A DNA stretch of 64,000 nucleotides from the human T2T-CHM13v2.0 reference genome, Homo sapiens (GCF_009914755.1 NC_060935.1), one strand, 5' to 3'. Positions 3,785 to 64,000 are shown, counted from the stretch's first letter. Notes: a model not told the origin generated them from the sequence alone. Numbers and translations: made by a program.

Positions 3785-4369
3785 ATGCTCTCCTCCACAC
3801 TCAGGGTGGCTGTGGTGTGCGTGAGCAATGTCAACAGGAGCATGGAGGCCCACAGCATCCTCAGGAGAAAAGGGCTAAGTGTCCGGTCTTTTGGAACTGA
3901 ATCTCATGTGAGGCTACCAGGACCAAGACCCAATCGTCCTGTAGTTTATGATTTTGCAACAACATATAAGCAGATGTACAATGACCTCCTCAGGAAAGAT
4001 AGAGAACGCTACACCCGCAACGGAATCTTACACATCTTGGGAAGAAATGAGAGAATCAAGCCCGGTCCAGAAAGATTTCAGGAGTGCACTGATTTCTTTG
4101 ATGTCATCTTCACCTGTGAGGAGAGTGTCTATGACACAGTGGTGGAAGATCTGTGTTCCAGAGAACAGCAGACCTTTCAGCCTGTGCACGTGATCAACAT
4201 GGACATCCAAGATACCCTGGAAGATGCCACCCTGGGAGCTTTCCTCATCTGTGAGATTTGCCAGTGCCTGCAGCAGTCAGACGACATGGAAGACAATCTG
4301 GAAGAGCTGCTGTTGCAAATGGAGGAGAAGGCAGGAAAAAGCTTTCTTCACACCGTCTGCTTCTACTGA
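3785..4369 (+). CDS. SSU72L: SSU72-like RNA polymerase II CTD phosphatase, intronless retrogene copy 1 (194 aa)
   Basis: ATG at 3785 in GCCGCCATCATG context; 585-nt ORF MLSSTLRVAVVCVSNVNRSMEAH...FLHTVCFY is colinear with SSU72 (194 aa); C12-X5-R18 and D140-IQ-D143 present; no introns. The paralog number cannot be assigned from sequence alone. Confidence 0.9.
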   Translation: MLSSTLRVAVVCVSNVNRSMEAHSILRRKGLSVRSFGTESHVRLPGPRPNRPVVYDFATTYKQMYNDLLRKDRERYTRNGILHILGRNERIKPGPERFQECTDFFDVIFTCEESVYDTVVEDLCSREQQTFQPVHVINMDIQDTLEDATLGAFLICEICQCLQQSDDMEDNLEELLLQMEEKAGKSFLHTVCFY

Positions 4370-4764
4370 ACACCTGGGCTGGCTTTGTCCCCTTCCTCAG
4401 TAAGAACTTAGGCATGGGACTTTAGTCCGGATTTATTGTGAGAAGCATCTGCAAAGACCTTCCACTGAGTACTGTTTGTGTGACTTTTGTACACATCACC
4501 TGGAAAGAGACTATTACCAAGAAAATATTTTATGGGAAATGAGAAGGACTAACATTTTTAAAAGCACTGAAAAATGTTTGGCATTGTGCTAGGTGCATTA
4601 CATGGCATAACTAATTTCATGCTTATATCATTCTACAAGGAAGCTAGCCCACCATGACGCCATTTTCCAGATAAGCAAACCGAGCTGATAATGGACTGCT
4701 GGAAAAATGATTTGTTTAAGGGTATTCAGCAGATAAATAACATTGTATAGATAAGCACCTTTTA

Positions 4765-4770
4765 AATAAA
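4765..4770 (+). terminator. Candidate polyadenylation signal of copy 1
   Basis: AATAAA about 400 bp after the stop codon, followed by a GT/T-rich tract (~4790-4820); present at the equivalent position in the other copies. Confidence 0.4.
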
Positions 4771-5572
4771 CTTCCTTTTCTCAATTTGAGTGGTTTTTTT
4801 TTAATTTTTAAATTTTTTAAGTTAGTTGAGACCAGTGAAGTGTGGTATGTTAACTTAAATGTTGTTCTTGTTTAATAAGAGTATAATATTACATGTTTGA
4901 ACAGATAAATGTTTTTACATATAGATTATATCTTTTTTACTAATGCTCACTTTAATGGGTAAAATCCAAGTTGGATAATGAACTACATATGATTGTAAAA
5001 TTTGGAATTATCTGCTCAAATCATAGGTCATCAAATTAAATGAAATAAAAAATGTAAATAAAAAGCATATTCTTATTTCTGTTTAGGGAATACATTTCAA
5101 GCCACTAAGTGACATGCTTTTGTTTAAACCTTATGAATTTCACTGAAAAAAAAAAACCCAAGTTGGATAACAAACCACAGATTATCGTAAAATTTGGAAT
5201 TATCTCCTCAAATAATAGGTCACCAAATCAAATAAAAAATTTTAAAAAAGTATATTCTTATTTATGTTGGGGGATGGATTTCACACCACTAAGCCACATG
5301 TTTTTATTTAAGGCTTACAGATTACAGTGAAATAAGCAATCTCTCATATTGAGAGATTCAAATTGTATTAAATTTAAAATGTTTATTGATTTGAGCATTG
5401 AGAACATCAGGTGATAAACCTAATGATGTTTTCACGGAGAAACAAGTGAAACACTTTCCATAATCCTTGGTAGTGGCACTAAAACATGTTCACTAGTAGG
5501 AGAAAAAATAGATCAGAAGTAGTTGTTCAGAGTTGAATTAATTTACATGTTATCTACTGAATTAGACTTATT

Positions 5573-60485: not shown

Positions 60486-63400
60486 CCTCCTTCTTCTTCT
60501 TCTTTTTTGAGACAGAGTCTCGCTCTGTTGCCCAGGCTGGAGTGCAGTGGTGCGATCTTGGCTCACTCACTGCAACATCCGCCTCCCATGTTCAAGCAAT
60601 TCTCCTGCCTCAGCCTCCCAAGTAGCTGGGAGTACAGGTGCACAGCACCACACTTGGTTAATTTTTGTATTTTGGATTACTGGTGTGAGCCACAGCTCCC
60701 GGCCCCATGTCCGATCTACCCCAAGGTCTGACCTGGATTGTGTAATCACCATGTGGCTTGTTTGTGGTTTTACACAAGTCTAATCCATGAAGCAGAGCAT
60801 GTAATACTTCAAGCTCAGTCTGTTGGTTGAAGCGAGTCATAAGGCAATGTCCCTGGATAGAAGGGGATGGGTAATAGACTGCACATCATGATGGGGGAAT
60901 GGCACGAGTGTTCAGCAGAGAGAATGGCTGGCAGCTATGTTAACAGATGCGCAACCATACCTGATAAACTATCAGATTGATAAATGTTCAAAAGCTTGAC
61001 ACTATACCCTGCTGGCAAGTTTGTGAGGGAAAAGGCATGTTTTCCCGTCATAATGAAAAATGTTACAAGCTCTATGGAGGGCATCTTGAATATCTAATAA
61101 ATCTAAAAACATGTTTACTCTGTCTTCCAAGTAGCCTTATAAGTAGCTAGGACTCAGGTGTGTGCCACCACACTTCGCTAATTTCTATTTTTAATTTTTT
61201 TGTAGAGATAGGGCTTCACTGTGTTGCTCAGGCTGGTCTTGAACTCCTGGCCTCAAGGCGATTCTCCTGCCTCAGCCTCTCAAGGTGCTGGGATTATAGG
61301 CATCAGCCACTGTTTCTGGCCTATACATCTCTTTGACCACAGTAATCCTACTTCTAAAAATTAACCATAAGGTCTATCAGCAGAATTATCCAACTGAAGA
61401 AGTGAGAAAAAAAGAACAAAAAAGAAAAGAAAGAGATCCTCAGGTACTTGAGGAACAATATCAAAAGGTCTACCAGATGTGTAGTTTGGGTCTCAAAATG
61501 AAATGAGAGAAAGAATGGGGCTGATTTTTGTTTTTGAGGCAATAATTGTGAAATTATTCAAATTAGGGAAAAAGCTAAAATATTACAGATTGAAAAAGTT
61601 CACAGAACTTCAAGGAGGCCTAAAAACAAAGAAAGTTGTATGTAGATGCCTCACAATCAAACTGAAAATTAAGACAAAGGGAAAAAATTTAAATGTAGCC
61701 GAAGGAGGCAGGACAGAAAACACTGGTACCTTAGTAGCATCAAGCACACTTGATTTTGATTACTCTCATCGTCCTCCAGTAATACAAACAGGATTATTTG
61801 GAGAAATTGTTGATTCTGAGGCTGGAAATATATAAGATGAACCTGGGGCATCTCATAATGCCAGAGTGTTTCCTTTTCCATGAAAAATGAAGTAAAACCA
61901 AACAAACACCACGATGGGGCACATGAAAGGACCCAGGAGGCAACTGAAAGTGCTTGCGATGGCCAAAACAGAAAGTTTGAGCAACAAAACAAAGCAGGAT
62001 CGAATTGTAACCCCACATAGAAAAATAAATATCCAAGATTCCATACTGCTATGAAGAAATAATTGAATAAATTCATTAATGAGGGGGAGAATAGACACAT
62101 CTGTGAGGAGTAAGTCCATATAATTTAAATGGATAATCCACCCACAAGGAAGTAGGGCACAAGTCCCCACTCCTTAAATGTGGGCTGCACATAGGGACTT
62201 TTTCCAAATAGTCCAGCATGGAAAATGGGAAAAAGGGTAAATTCACAGTGGAGAAGGCTGATGAAGTGGAGCTGGAAGGTCATGAAGGAGGGGAGCCCAT
62301 GCTTGTGTACTTGAGATAAGAACTATCACAAGGACTCTCTAAAACCCACAAGAGATTATGGCACATCTTACATGCTTTGCACCATCAGCAGGTCTTACAC
62401 ACTTTGCTCATTCTGCATGGCCACACATATTTCTATAACTGCAATATCTTCAAGACTGCAGCATTCCAGATAAAATGTTCTCGCAAGAACACATGCCTAG
62501 CAATGGCTGTCTCCACCAAGAAGCTAATGCCGACTCCTGCAATGAGCTTCTGTGACCAATAAATTTATTTCAAAGCAGCTTCTGTGGACTTCTTTTTGCC
62601 TTTAAAAGTTTCCCCTTACCCTAACCTCTCAGGATACACCTGTGACTTGTTATACCCGGTATATTCCTGATTCCAGTCCTTCATTCAAATAAACTCATTT
62701 TGAGAGCTAATCTCTGCTGTTATTTTAGGTTGCCGTAATAAGTCTAGTTCAATAGATAACATGTCAATTAATTTAACTATGAACAACTACTTCTGATCTA
62801 TTTTTCTCCTATTAGTAAACATGGTTTAGTGCCACTACCAAGGATTATGAAAAAGAGTTTCAATTGTTTCTCCTTGAAAACATCATTAGGTTTATCACCT
62901 GATGTTCTCAGTGTTCATACCAATGAATATTTTAAACCTAATAAAATTTTCACTATGAAAGATCCCTTTTTTTTCAGTGTAATTCGTAAGGTTTAAACAA
63001 AAGCATGTCGCTTAGTGGCTTGAAATGCATCCCCCAAACAGAAATAAGAATATACTTTTTATTTACATTTTTTATTTCATTTAATTTGATGACCTATGAT
63101 TTGAGCAGATAATTCCAAATGTTACAATCATATGTAGTTCATTACCCAACTTGGATTTTACCTATTAAAGTGAGCATTAGTAAAAAAGATATAATCTATA
63201 TGTAAAAACATTGATCTGTTCAAACATGTAATATTATACTCTTATTAAAGAAGAACATTTAAGTTAACATACCACACTTCACTGGTCTCAAGTAACTTAA
63301 AAAATTTAAAAATTAAAAAAAACCACTCAAATTGAGAAAAGGAAGTTTATTTAAAAGGTGCTTATCTATACAATGTTATTTATCTGCTGAATACCCTTAA

Positions 63401-63746
63401 ACAAATCATTTTTCCAGCAGTCCATTATCAGCTCGGTTTGCTCATCTGGAAAATGGCGTCATGGTGGGCTAGCTTTCTTGTAGAATGATATAAGCATGAA
63501 ATTAGTTATGCCATGTAATGCACCTAGCACAATGCCAAGCATTTTTCAGTGCTTTTAAAAATGTTAGTCCTTCTCATTTCCCATAAAATATTTTCTTGGT
63601 AATAGTCTCTTTCCAGGTGATGTGTACAAAAGTCACACAAACAGTACTCAGTGGAAGGTCTTTGCAGATGCTTCTCACAATAAATCCGGACTAAAGTCCC
63701 ATGCCTAAGTTCTTACTGAGGAAGGGGACAAAGCCAGCCCAGATGT

Positions 63747-64000
63747 TCAGTAGAAGCAGACGGTGTGAAGAAAGCTTTTTCCTGCCTTCTCCTCCATTTG
63801 CAACAGCAGCTCTTCCAGATTGTCTTCCATGTCGTCTGACTGCTGCAGGCACTGGCAAATCTCACAGATGAGGAAAGCTCCCAGGGTGGCATCTTCCAGG
63901 GTATCTTGGATTTCCATGTTGATCACGTGCACAGGCTGAAAGGTCTGCTGTTCTCTGGAACACAGATCTTCCACCACTGTGTCATAGACACTCTCCTCAC
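63747..64000 (-). CDS. SSU72L: SSU72-like retrogene copy 4, C-terminal part (5' part lies beyond the window end)
   Basis: ...VVEDLCSREQQTFQPVHVINMEIQDTLEDA...HTVCFY* matches copy 2 at an offset of 51,174 bp. Confidence 0.85.
   Translation of the reverse strand, partial: EESVYDTVVEDLCSREQQTFQPVHVINMEIQDTLEDATLGAFLICEICQCLQQSDDMEDNLEELLLQMEEKAGKSFLHTVCFY

What the first reader, a model, noticed from the sequence alone, without database searches (positions are those of the whole stretch)
3785..64000. Amplified family of intact SSU72-like CTD-phosphatase retrogenes, probably not dead pseudogenes
Seen: four copies, and the three complete ones are exactly 194 codons with a Kozak ATG and no stops or indels. 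They keep C12-X5-R18, D143 and the C-terminal HTVCFY, despite dozens of substitutions relative to SSU72 as I remember it. Known: SSU72 dephosphorylates Pol II CTD pSer5/pSer7 and works with symplekin in 3' processing and termination. Inference: an old retrocopy that diverged this far without a disabling mutation, and then amplified behind a dedicated promoter, is a candidate lineage-specific regulator of the CTD code.
Basis: partly seen in the sequence, partly recalled or inferred. Interest (0 to 1): 0.85.

Follow-up and report, generated by a model that had tools for sequence, protein, structure and literature searches.

The report
DUX4-driven SSU72-like phosphatase gene family
These are intact, already annotated copies of an ancient retrogene encoding an SSU72-type RNA polymerase II phosphatase; their shared promoter carries DUX4 binding motifs and they switch on massively when DUX4 is expressed, so they probably belong to the early-embryo gene-activation programme.

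Summary
The window holds three complete 194-codon SSU72-like ORFs and the C-terminal part of a fourth. The genome has six on chr11 and one on chr7, all intact, including the "pseudogene" SSU72P6.

They are not dead pseudogenes:
- dN/dS against the parent SSU72 is about 0.19, and about 0.3 between the chr7 and chr11 copies.
- Human SSU72L4 keeps 22 of 23 deeply conserved Ssu72 positions, including C12, R18 and D143.

This is already annotated: RefSeq lists SSU72L1-5 and HGNC renamed them from pseudogene to protein-coding.

The family is not primate-specific. It forms a 100/100-supported clade with intact 191-196-residue proteins from other primates, tree shrew, perissodactyls, carnivores, a bat and cetartiodactyls. 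Only the six-copy chr11 cluster (three convergent gene pairs) is a later expansion.

New here: the shared TATA promoter has two modules, each with two DUX4-type sites. A published supplementary RNA-seq table shows SSU72P2-P7 rising from 162 to 3,408 summed FPKM on DUX4 induction. I found no main-text mention of this link.

The chr7 copy looks like an L1 3' transduction of gene plus promoter.

Protein function and embryo expression remain untested.

The parts
3785..4369 (+). SSU72P6: intact 194-codon SSU72-like ORF, annotated as a pseudogene
   Evidence: ORF and translation. Pfam Ssu72 E 3.5e-85. Differs from SSU72L4 at 4 nt and 3 aa. Listed as DUX4-induced, 40.7 to 715.3 FPKM, in PMC10514451 Table S2.
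12573..13157 (-). SSU72L4 coding sequence
   Evidence: SSU72P4 goes from 39.6 to 670.6 FPKM.
54952..55536 (+). SSU72L3 coding sequence
   Evidence: SSU72P3 goes from 5.3 to 52.8 FPKM.
63747..64000 (-). SSU72L1 coding sequence: the C-terminal 83 codons plus stop; the rest lies beyond the window end
   Evidence: The full copy in the genome is 100% identical to L4.
3548..3608 (+). SSU72P6 proximal promoter module: an exact DUX4-type site TAATTTAATCA at -237 and a one-mismatch site CAACCTAATCA at -187. TATAAA follows at 3654-3659 (-131).
2861..2921 (+). SSU72P6 distal promoter module: a one-mismatch site GAATTTAATCA at -924 and an exact site TAATCTAATCA at -874
   Evidence: The module is a diverged (about 81%) duplicate of the proximal one.
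13334..13394 (-). SSU72L4 proximal promoter module (two DUX4-type sites)
14021..14081 (-). SSU72L4 distal promoter module (two DUX4-type sites)
54715..54775 (+). SSU72L3 proximal promoter module. TATAAA is at 54821-54826 and the annotated TSS at 54877.
54041..54051 (+). SSU72L3 distal exact DUX4-type site. The neighbouring distal site is mutated in this copy (AATCA to AATAA).
55932..55937 (+). AATAAA poly(A) signal of SSU72L3, 396 nt after the stop and 14 nt before the annotated transcript end. It sits at the same offset in P6 and L4.
1..5153 (+). Left arm of an inverted repeat, 98.4% identical to 11793-16946. It places P6 and L4 tail-to-tail around a 6.6-kb spacer.
   Evidence: Self-BLAST.
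11793..16946 (-). Right arm of the same inverted repeat
53868..64000 (+). Direct repeat of 2741-12826 at 97.9% identity: the second convergent gene pair, L3 and L1
2301..5064 (+). The 2.78-kb unit (-1484 to +1280 from the ATG) also present on chr7 at 93.4% identity. It contains both promoter modules, the gene, and a downstream AAATAAA where the chr7 copy ends in poly(A).

Best explanation
SSU72L1-5 and SSU72P6 on chr11, plus one chr7 copy, descend from a single processed retrocopy of SSU72. That retrocopy arose before the Euarchonta/Laurasiatheria split and has been kept as a protein-coding gene ever since. The proteins retain the full Ssu72 catalytic apparatus, so they most likely act as cysteine-based phosphatases of the Pol II CTD.

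Their expression is not housekeeping. Each copy sits behind a CpG-poor TATA promoter containing two duplicated modules, each with two DUX4-type double-homeodomain sites. The genes are silent in myoblasts and are switched on very strongly by DUX4.

The most likely role is therefore a DUX4-triggered burst of SSU72-type CTD phosphatase. Normally this would occur at embryonic genome activation and possibly in the germline. Ectopically it would occur in DUX4-expressing muscle (FSHD) or tumours.

What is shown: intact ORFs, purifying selection, conserved catalytic residues, ancient origin, the motifs, and DUX4-induced RNA. What is inferred: direct DUX4 binding, translation, CTD-phosphatase activity, and expression in cleavage-stage embryos.

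My confidence by layer:
- Selected coding family: about 0.9.
- DUX4 target: about 0.85.
- CTD phosphatase acting at genome activation: about 0.5.
For: Selection:
- Parent versus SSU72L gives dS about 1.0, dN about 0.19 and dN/dS 0.19. There are 78 nonsynonymous and 68 synonymous changes against a neutral expectation of 79% nonsynonymous; one-sided binomial p = 1.3e-11.
- chr7 versus chr11 copies give dN/dS 0.28-0.39 (p = 0.004 to 0.02).
- Divergence between the chr7 and chr11 copies is 4.1% in the CDS, 5.8% in the proximal promoter, 6.9% in the 3'UTR and 7.9-8.9% further upstream.

Catalytic conservation:
- 23 positions are conserved in at least 85% of 56 distant Ssu72 representatives. Human SSU72L4 keeps 22 of them.
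- The 41-row SSU72L clade keeps C12, N15, N17, R18, S19 and D143 in at least 95% of rows.

Age:
- The clade has SH-aLRT 99 in a 75-row quick tree and 100/100 in a 51-row careful tree.
- Eight Laurasiatherian proteins share 21-29 of the 57 human-derived states. The chrX copy shares 6.

Promoter:
- All 6 exact matches to TAAYBBAATCA in the 64-kb window lie upstream and in sense of the three complete copies. The chance expectation is 1.34.
- Both exact sites are kept in 5 of 6 chr11 copies and in the chr7 copy.
- There are none in 15.6 kb of parental SSU72 loci or in the chrX locus.

Expression (PMC10514451 Table S2; supplement passages and header seen):
- On DUX4 induction in LHCN-M2 myoblasts, FPKM rises as follows: SSU72P2 33 to 1045, P4 40 to 671, P5 15 to 580, P6 41 to 715, P7 28 to 344, P3 5 to 53. 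Adjusted p ranges from 3.6e-21 to 0.
- The six sum to 162 before and 3,408 after induction.
- Uninduced controls of the other cell lines read 0-2.3 FPKM.

Chromatin: the ATAC_DUX4 sheet of Table S3 lists peaks assigned to all six genes.
Against: - I saw no protein, Ribo-seq or embryo data.
- 'SSU72' occurs 0 times in the 4 held supplementary files of the 8C-like-cell paper PMC8901440 (54,211 characters). It also occurs 0 times in the 4 files of the FSHD2 single-nucleus paper PMC7224571 (4.3 million characters).
- The ChIP-seq table (S4) of PMC10514451 is not held, so direct DUX4 binding was not seen.
- My placing of the ATAC peaks on the distal module rests on peak spacing alone.
- Motif and induction do not track neatly. 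SSU72L5 has both exact sites mutated yet is strongly induced. The chr7 copy has all four sites, but SSU72P8, presumed to be that copy, only goes from 9.9 to 27.1 FPKM. Read assignment among copies that are 99% identical is unreliable.
- The six motif matches are really two independent sites that were copied. One-mismatch matches are not enriched window-wide: 38 observed against 27.95 expected, and 5 of 100 shuffles reach 38.
- Among the chr11 copies there are 7 nonsynonymous and 3 synonymous variable codons, so no recent constraint is detectable.
- The P-loop carries S13V and Q16V, and the deeply conserved G39 is E in anthropoid copies. Activity or specificity may have shifted.
- The clade evolves much faster than canonical SSU72: mean pairwise identity 0.725 against 0.935.
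Confidence: 0.7

Rival explanations
1. Neofunctionalised or antagonistic paralogue. The protein is made, but it no longer does SSU72's job. It may have a different substrate preference. Or it may compete with SSU72 for partners such as symplekin, so the DUX4-driven burst would perturb 3'-end processing and termination rather than reinforce them.
For: There are 55-58 substitutions. Two are in the P-loop (S13V, Q16V), and the deeply conserved G39 is E in anthropoid copies. Six clade-wide derived residues exist (T40S, N53V, K73R, M84I, I162L, Q177L). The clade evolves faster than canonical SSU72.
Against: All catalytic residues and 22 of 23 deeply conserved positions are kept. A pure competitor would not need them.
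Confidence: 0.2
2. Functionless passengers. The loci are transcribed because they sit behind DUX4-responsive DNA. Their ORFs stay open only through chance and gene conversion among the copies.
For: The CDS and 3'UTR are homogenised among the chr11 copies (0.8% and 1.1% divergence), while upstream flanks differ by up to about 10%. This shows gene conversion. Variable codons within chr11 run 7 nonsynonymous to 3 synonymous.
Against: Gene conversion cannot explain the dN/dS of 0.19 against the parent or about 0.3 against chr7. It also cannot explain intact full-length proteins of 191-196 residues across 35 non-human rows of the clade, or the retention of catalytic residues. Simulated neutral copies stay open in only 0.2-1.6% of runs, even ignoring indels.
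Confidence: 0.07
3. Mainly a male-germline retrogene. As with many retrogenes, the real site of action is testis, and DUX4 responsiveness in myoblasts merely reflects a germline-type promoter.
For: Convergent gene pairs in inverted repeats and recurrent open SSU72 retrocopies in other mammals resemble germline-expressed families. That resemblance is recalled, not tested.
Against: I saw no tissue data. This reading does not exclude the embryo reading, and the DUX4 induction is direct experimental data.
Confidence: 0.15

Closest known systems
Human SSU72 (chr1 parent gene; solved structures 3o2q, 3o2s, 4h3h, 4h3k)
   Same: 194 residues. Ungapped alignment with E 1.5e-93. About 71% identity. The CX5R P-loop, D143 and the C-terminal HTVCFY are shared. 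Full-length Pfam PF04722 match.
   Different: The copies are intronless, while the parent has four introns, at CDS positions 80, 224, 364 and 483. There are 55-58 substitutions, including S13V, Q16V and G39E. GC3 is 0.59 against 0.70. The family is multi-copy. It has a TATA promoter with DUX4-type sites, which are absent from the parental loci examined.
Clustered, amplified DUX4-target gene families of the cleavage stage, for example PRAMEF, ZSCAN4 and TAF11L. ZSCAN4 and PRAMEF are named as DUX4 targets in PMC10514451 passages. TAF11L5 and TAF11L11 are induced in the same table.
   Same: A tandem or inverted multi-copy cluster, DUX4-type motifs in the promoter, silence in somatic cells, and strong induction by DUX4.
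   Different: This family encodes a near-full-fidelity copy of a core Pol II CTD phosphatase. It is much older than primates. I found no main-text mention of it as a DUX4 target.
Gene duplication by L1 3' transduction (a mechanism known from the literature; recalled, no paper read here)
   Same: In the chr7 copy, an L1 3' end in the same orientation abuts the start of a 2.78-kb chr11-type segment. That segment ends in a poly(A) run immediately after a downstream AAATAAA.
   Different: The transduced segment carries a whole gene with its own promoter. No source L1 adjacent to the unit exists in this assembly. The target-site duplication is ambiguous.
Human chrX SSU72 retrocopy (T2T chrX:112,798,706-112,799,290)
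   Same: Also an open 194-codon intronless copy with a full Pfam Ssu72 match.
   Different: It is closer to the parent: 88 nt and 43 aa differences, dS 0.47. UTR homology to the parent is still detectable. R18 is Q, so the catalytic arginine is lost. It has no DUX4-type site. It shares only 6 of the 57 SSU72L-derived residues.

Membership tests
Ssu72 family of CTD phosphatases (Pfam PF04722) | Full-length match to the family profile | tested here: met
   The match covers positions 1-189 of 189 in the model, at 284-285 bits against a cut-off of 25.3, for all three complete copies.
Ssu72 family of CTD phosphatases (Pfam PF04722) | N-terminal C-X5-R-S phosphate-binding loop with the nucleophilic cysteine | tested here: met
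   VCVSNVNRS is present in all six chr11 copies and VCVSNINRS in chr7. C12 and R18 are kept in at least 95% of the 41 clade rows.
Ssu72 family of CTD phosphatases (Pfam PF04722) | General-acid aspartate (D143 in human numbering) | tested here: met
   D143 is present in all human copies and in 98% of clade rows. That it is the general acid is recalled, not tested.
Ssu72 family of CTD phosphatases (Pfam PF04722) | Low-molecular-weight-PTP-like fold with the Ssu72 cap | not tested
The fold is implied only by the ungapped alignment at about 71% identity to solved SSU72.
Ssu72 family of CTD phosphatases (Pfam PF04722) | Phosphatase activity on pSer5/pSer7 of the Pol II CTD, and binding to symplekin | not testable with these tools
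   This needs an enzyme assay and a binding assay.
Processed retrogene | Lacks all the parent's introns, with colinear coding sequence | tested here: met
   The parental exon junctions at CDS 80, 224, 364 and 483 have unique GT-AG boundaries. The copies are continuous 585-nt ORFs.
Processed retrogene | Remnant poly(A) tail, target-site duplication and parental UTRs from the original insertion | tested here: not met
   Homology to the parent runs only from about 10 nt before the ATG to the stop codon. No UTR homology or tail is detectable. This is expected at dS about 1, but it is not positive evidence.
Direct DUX4 target gene | DUX4-type double-homeodomain motif in the promoter | tested here: met
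   Each promoter has two exact and two one-mismatch sites, conserved in the chr7 copy. The consensus TAAYBBAATCA was recalled from memory.
Direct DUX4 target gene | Induction when DUX4 is expressed | tested here: met
   This is published supplementary data, not my own experiment. log2 fold change is 3.2-5.2 for SSU72P2-P7 in PMC10514451 Table S2.
Direct DUX4 target gene | DUX4 occupancy (ChIP) at the promoter | not tested
   Table S4 of PMC10514451 is not held. Only ATAC peaks assigned to the genes were seen.
Direct DUX4 target gene | Expression at the human 4-8-cell stage | tested here: inconclusive
   The held supplements of one 8C-like-cell paper contain no SSU72 entries. Further datasets could not be opened.
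L1 3' transduction (chr7 copy only) | L1 3' end in the same orientation directly upstream, and poly(A) after a downstream signal | tested here: met
   Junction sequences.
L1 3' transduction (chr7 copy only) | Clear target-site duplication and an identifiable source L1 | tested here: inconclusive
   There is only a short A-rich candidate duplication. The nearest chr11 L1 3' end lies 1.83 kb from the unit and is only 84% identical.

The most novel reading that the evidence does not exclude
SSU72L is a DUX-controlled module of placental mammals (seen so far in Euarchonta and Laurasiatheria). At embryonic genome activation, DUX4 floods the nucleus with an SSU72-type phosphatase that resets Pol II CTD Ser5/Ser7 phosphorylation. 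This would speed polymerase recycling or termination during the first transcription burst. The same burst would contribute to the RNA-processing defects and toxicity of DUX4 in FSHD muscle. The apparent absence of the clade from rodents and lagomorphs, in the two lists examined, would explain why it was never found in mouse.
Probability: 0.3. Interest if true: 0.8.

Novelty: already known. Interest (0 to 1): 0.5.

Why it matters
The genes themselves are already in RefSeq and HGNC, so their existence is not news. What could matter is what they do.

When DUX4 is on, a seven-member family of near-canonical Pol II CTD phosphatases is among the most abundant induced transcripts: about 3,400 summed FPKM in one published table. 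Yet I found no main-text discussion of this.

If the proteins are active, they link the DUX4 programme directly to the core transcription cycle. That would give a testable handle on how the first embryonic transcription burst is organised, and on DUX4 toxicity in FSHD.

Two practical points also follow:
- SSU72P6 looks wrongly classed as a pseudogene in this assembly.
- Standard unique-mapping pipelines will under-report the whole family.

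Tried and rejected
- Transposon origin of the promoter. A genome search with the 392 bp upstream of the ATG found only the seven family loci and two diverged distal modules. This gives no support, but that search skips very common words, so an old repeat is not excluded.
- Parental UTR homology, as a way to delimit the original retrocopy. None was found beyond about 10 nt 5' of the ATG.
- Constraint within chr11. There are only 10 variable codons (3 synonymous, 7 nonsynonymous), which is too few to test.
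- One-mismatch motif enrichment across the window was not significant.
- Source L1 for the chr7 copy was not found.
- Independence of the chrX copy on the protein tree. An AU test does not reject chrX plus the bonobo X-like protein forming one clade with SSU72L (p 0.56; the constrained tree scored 4.28 log-likelihood units higher). Its independence therefore rests on lower dS to the parent, retained UTR homology and few shared derived residues.
- Embryo and FSHD expression from supplements. There were zero SSU72 entries in the held files of PMC8901440 and PMC7224571.
I could not see further 8-cell datasets or the ChIP table of PMC10514451, and both bear directly on the embryo and binding claims.

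Full report
**What is in the sequence**

The window contains three complete ATG-to-stop ORFs of exactly 194 codons: 3785-4369 (+), 12573-13157 (-) and 54952-55536 (+). It also holds the last 83 codons of a fourth, at 63747-64000 (-), which is cut by the window end. All three complete proteins match Pfam Ssu72 over the entire model, with E about 1e-85. They align without a gap to solved human SSU72, E 1.5e-93.

A six-frame search of the whole assembly found the following:
- Six such copies on chr11, all open.
- One copy on chr7, 93% identical and open.
- One copy on chrX, 64% identical and open.
- The multi-exon parent on chr1.

The copy annotated as pseudogene SSU72P6 is as intact as the others. 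SSU72L1 and SSU72L4 have identical coding sequences.

**Are they alive?**

I spliced the parental CDS from the chr1 loci. Each of the four junctions had a single possible GT-AG boundary. I then compared codons:

| Comparison | nt differences (of 582) | aa differences (of 194) | dS | dN | dN/dS |
|---|---|---|---|---|---|
| Parent vs SSU72L | 142-150 | 55-58 | about 1.0 | about 0.19 | 0.19 |
| chr7 vs chr11 copies | 23-25 | 12-15 | about 0.09 | about 0.03 | 0.28-0.39 |

- The deficit of nonsynonymous change is significant: p = 1.3e-11 against the parent, and 0.004-0.02 for chr7 against chr11.
- Simulated neutral copies remain stop-free in 1.6% of runs at 146 substitutions and 0.2% at 291. Indels were ignored.
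- 23 positions are conserved in at least 85% of 56 distant Ssu72 representatives. Human SSU72L4 keeps 22 of them, including C12, N15, N17, R18, S19 and D143. The exception is G39E, seen in the anthropoid copies.
- Among the six chr11 copies there are only ten variable codons (3 synonymous, 7 nonsynonymous). That is too few to test.

**How old is the family?**

A protein search returned 191-196-residue 'SSU72-like' proteins that are closer to human SSU72L than the parent is. The parent scores 71%:

| Group | Identity to human SSU72L |
|---|---|
| Old World monkeys | 89-91% |
| Cebus | 85% |
| Diceros | 81% |
| Tupaia | 79% |
| Lorisoids | 77% |
| Horses | 76-77% |
| Hippopotamus | 76% |
| Seals and lemurs | 74% |

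For the first tree I used 67 of the 120 listed hits: the named, near-full-length ones. I dropped unnamed contig proteins and partial or isoform entries, and added 8 human sequences. A quick tree of these 75 rows gives a 41-row SSU72L clade with SH-aLRT 99 and a stem of 0.25. A careful tree of a different 51-row sample gives the same clade at 100/100. Its bootstrap had not fully settled.

Eight Laurasiatherian members share 21-29 of the 57 residues that distinguish human SSU72L4 from canonical SSU72. The chrX copy shares 6.

In a profile search, no rodent, lagomorph, afrotherian or xenarthran protein scored above canonical SSU72 among the best 120 of 358 hits. That is not proof of absence.

So the retrocopy predates the Euarchonta/Laurasiatheria split. 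The family is not lineage-specific. The high dS is partly compositional: GC3 is 0.70 in the parent and 0.59 in the copies.

**Structure of the cluster**

The copies sit as three tail-to-tail pairs in inverted repeats. In the window, arms 1-5153 and 11793-16946 are 98.4% identical. The stretch 2741-12826 is repeated directly at 53868-64000 at 97.9%.

The flanks are mosaic:
- Upstream sequences fall into two types, {P6, L4, L1, chr7} and {L3, L5, L2}, about 9-10% apart.
- Downstream sequences fall into two differently composed types.
- The CDS and 3'UTR differ by only 0.8% and 1.1% on average among the chr11 copies.

This points to gene conversion over the transcribed part. It also shows that at least two chr11 copies existed by about the time the chr7 copy formed.

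**The promoter**

The 392 bp upstream of the ATG occur only at the six chr11 copies and the chr7 copy (95-100% identity). A second, 81%-identical 120-bp module lies further upstream.

Promoter layout relative to the ATG:
- TATAAA at -131.
- Annotated transcription starts at -75 to -102.
- No upstream ATG within -110..-1.
- CpG observed/expected 0.20-0.27.
- AATAAA 396 nt after the stop.

Scanning the window for the DUX4 consensus TAAYBBAATCA (recalled from memory) gave 6 exact matches against 1.34 expected. All lie upstream and in sense of the three complete genes. Because the genes are duplicates, these are really two independent sites.

Each promoter has two modules with two sites 50 bp apart:
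- Distal: -924 (one mismatch) and -874 (exact).
- Proximal: -237 (exact) and -187 (one mismatch).

Both exact sites survive in 5 of 6 chr11 copies and in the chr7 copy. There are none in 15.6 kb of parental loci or at the chrX copy. One-mismatch matches are not enriched window-wide.

**Published data that bear on this**

In PMC10514451 I saw supplement passages and the table header and main-text passages.

Table S2 reports RNA-seq of doxycycline-inducible LHCN-M2 myoblasts. From gene order along the chromosome, P5, P2, P4, P3 and P7 correspond to L5, L2, L4, L3 and L1.

| Gene | FPKM, control | FPKM, DUX4 induced | log2 fold change |
|---|---|---|---|
| SSU72P2 | 33.2 | 1045.1 | 4.89 |
| SSU72P4 | 39.6 | 670.6 | 3.99 |
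| SSU72P5 | 14.9 | 580.0 | 5.18 |
| SSU72P6 | 40.7 | 715.3 | 4.05 |
| SSU72P7 | 28.2 | 344.2 | 3.52 |
| SSU72P3 | 5.3 | 52.8 | 3.23 |
| SSU72P8 (presumably chr7; not verified) | 9.9 | 27.1 | 1.36 |

- The six chr11 genes sum to 162 FPKM before and 3,408 after induction.
- In the other cell lines the uninduced values are 0-2.3 FPKM.
- The platypus single-homeodomain sDUX also induces the genes (up to 120 FPKM). DUXB does so weakly. DUXA shows no significant induction.

Table S3 (sheet ATAC_DUX4, hg38) lists peaks assigned to all six genes. By hand arithmetic:
- Three peaks are spaced 45,455 and 51,279 bp apart. The T2T spacings L2-L4 and L4-L1 are 45,459 and 51,174 bp.
- The paired peaks of each convergent gene pair lie 1,865-1,973 bp further apart than the two ATGs.
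- If the arms are symmetrical, the peak centres sit at about -930 to -990, which is on the distal module. This is an inference from spacing only.

The ChIP-seq table (S4) is not held.

The literature library returned no paper whose main text links SSU72L/SSU72P to DUX4, genome activation, FSHD or retrogenes. Two papers mention SSU72L at all:
- The HGNC paper, on the rename from pseudogene to protein-coding (PMC12807706, passage).
- A transposon co-mapping paper noting three SVA_B elements in the cluster (PMC13732488, passages).

**Results against the reading, or neutral**

- SSU72 does not occur in the held supplements of one 8C-like-cell paper or of one FSHD2 single-nucleus paper.
- SSU72L5 lacks both exact sites yet is strongly induced. 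The chr7 copy has all four sites but is weakly induced. SSU72L3, the weakest chr11 copy, has lost one distal site. Read assignment among near-identical copies is unreliable.
- I saw no translation evidence.

**Conclusion on mechanism**

The best-supported reading is as follows. An ancient SSU72 retrogene was retained as an active-site-intact phosphatase. It was placed under a DUX-responsive TATA promoter, amplified in primates into three inverted pairs, and homogenised by gene conversion.

Its likely job is a DUX4-timed surge of SSU72-type CTD phosphatase activity. Direct DUX4 binding, translation, enzymatic activity and embryonic timing are all inferred.

**Side findings**

- **chr7 copy.** It is a 2.78-kb segment equivalent to window 2301-5064 (-1484 to +1280 from the ATG) at 93.4% identity. 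A 5'-truncated L1 3' end in the same orientation lies immediately before it. The segment ends in a poly(A) run right after a downstream AAATAAA. This is the signature of an L1 3' transduction that carried the gene with its promoter. No source L1 was found.
- **chrX copy.** It is also an open 194-codon ORF, but R18 is Q, so the catalytic arginine is lost. It is closer to the parent (dS 0.47) and still shows UTR homology. A bonobo protein is 95% identical to it. The protein tree cannot reject a common origin with SSU72L (AU p 0.56).

**Verdict**

Their existence is already annotated, and the 'lineage-specific' framing is wrong. The value added here is the age of the family, the DUX4-type promoter with supporting published data, and the transduction origin of the chr7 copy.

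Noticed in passing
L008 (T2T chrX:112,798,706-112,799,290), outside the window: This is an open 194-codon SSU72 retrocopy with a full Pfam Ssu72 match, probably of separate origin from the SSU72L family (an AU test cannot exclude a shared origin, p 0.56). Its catalytic arginine is replaced (R18Q, plus S13W and S14N), so it is possibly a dead enzyme or a slowly decaying copy. Against the parent, dS is 0.47 and dN/dS 0.23. A bonobo protein is 95% identical. Four tandem GGTCGCCATTTTT units lie just upstream of the ATG.
   Followed up: partly
L014/L015 (T2T chr7:125,792,387-125,795,169), outside the window: In the chr7 SSU72L copy, a 5'-truncated L1 3' end is followed directly by 2.78 kb of chr11-type sequence (promoter plus gene). 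That sequence ends in poly(A) after a downstream AAATAAA. This looks like an L1 3' transduction of a whole gene. No source L1 was found in this assembly.
   Followed up: partly
window 3785-4369: SSU72P6 is annotated as a pseudogene. Yet in this assembly it has an intact ORF and an intact promoter with all four DUX4-type sites, and it is listed at 715 FPKM after DUX4 induction. The biotype looks out of date.
   Followed up: yes
window 2285-5285, 11657-14657 and 53452-56452 (the in-window parts of L004, L001 and L005); also L002, L003 and L006: The flanks are mosaic. Upstream and downstream flank types are shuffled among the six chr11 copies, while the CDS and 3'UTR are nearly identical. This indicates gene conversion centred on the transcribed part.
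   Followed up: partly
window 8349-8891 and 59523-60065: GC-rich tandem arrays with a 40-bp period (about 14 copies) sit in the spacers between the convergent gene pairs. They probably belong to the SVA_B elements reported for this cluster in PMC13732488.
   Followed up: no
window 23582-26962 (- strand): Broken L1 ORF2 pieces lie between the gene pairs. They give Pfam matches to reverse transcriptase and endonuclease. A 162-residue ORF at 43296-43784 (-) has no Pfam match.
   Followed up: partly
proteins P0048/49/59/65, P0043/62/67, P0058/66/73/92, P0084/98/100, P0061/70: Other mammals carry their own separate clusters of open, roughly 194-residue SSU72 copies outside the SSU72L clade: colugo (4), two marsupial groups, deer and pangolins. 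SSU72 seems to give rise to open retrocopies repeatedly.
   Followed up: no
proteins P0005-P0008: Unnamed contigs of about 1 kb encode 98-99%-identical SSU72L proteins. One cluster has 318 member sequences. The contig length is close to the annotated mRNA length, which would fit assembled transcripts. Their origin was not traced.
   Followed up: no
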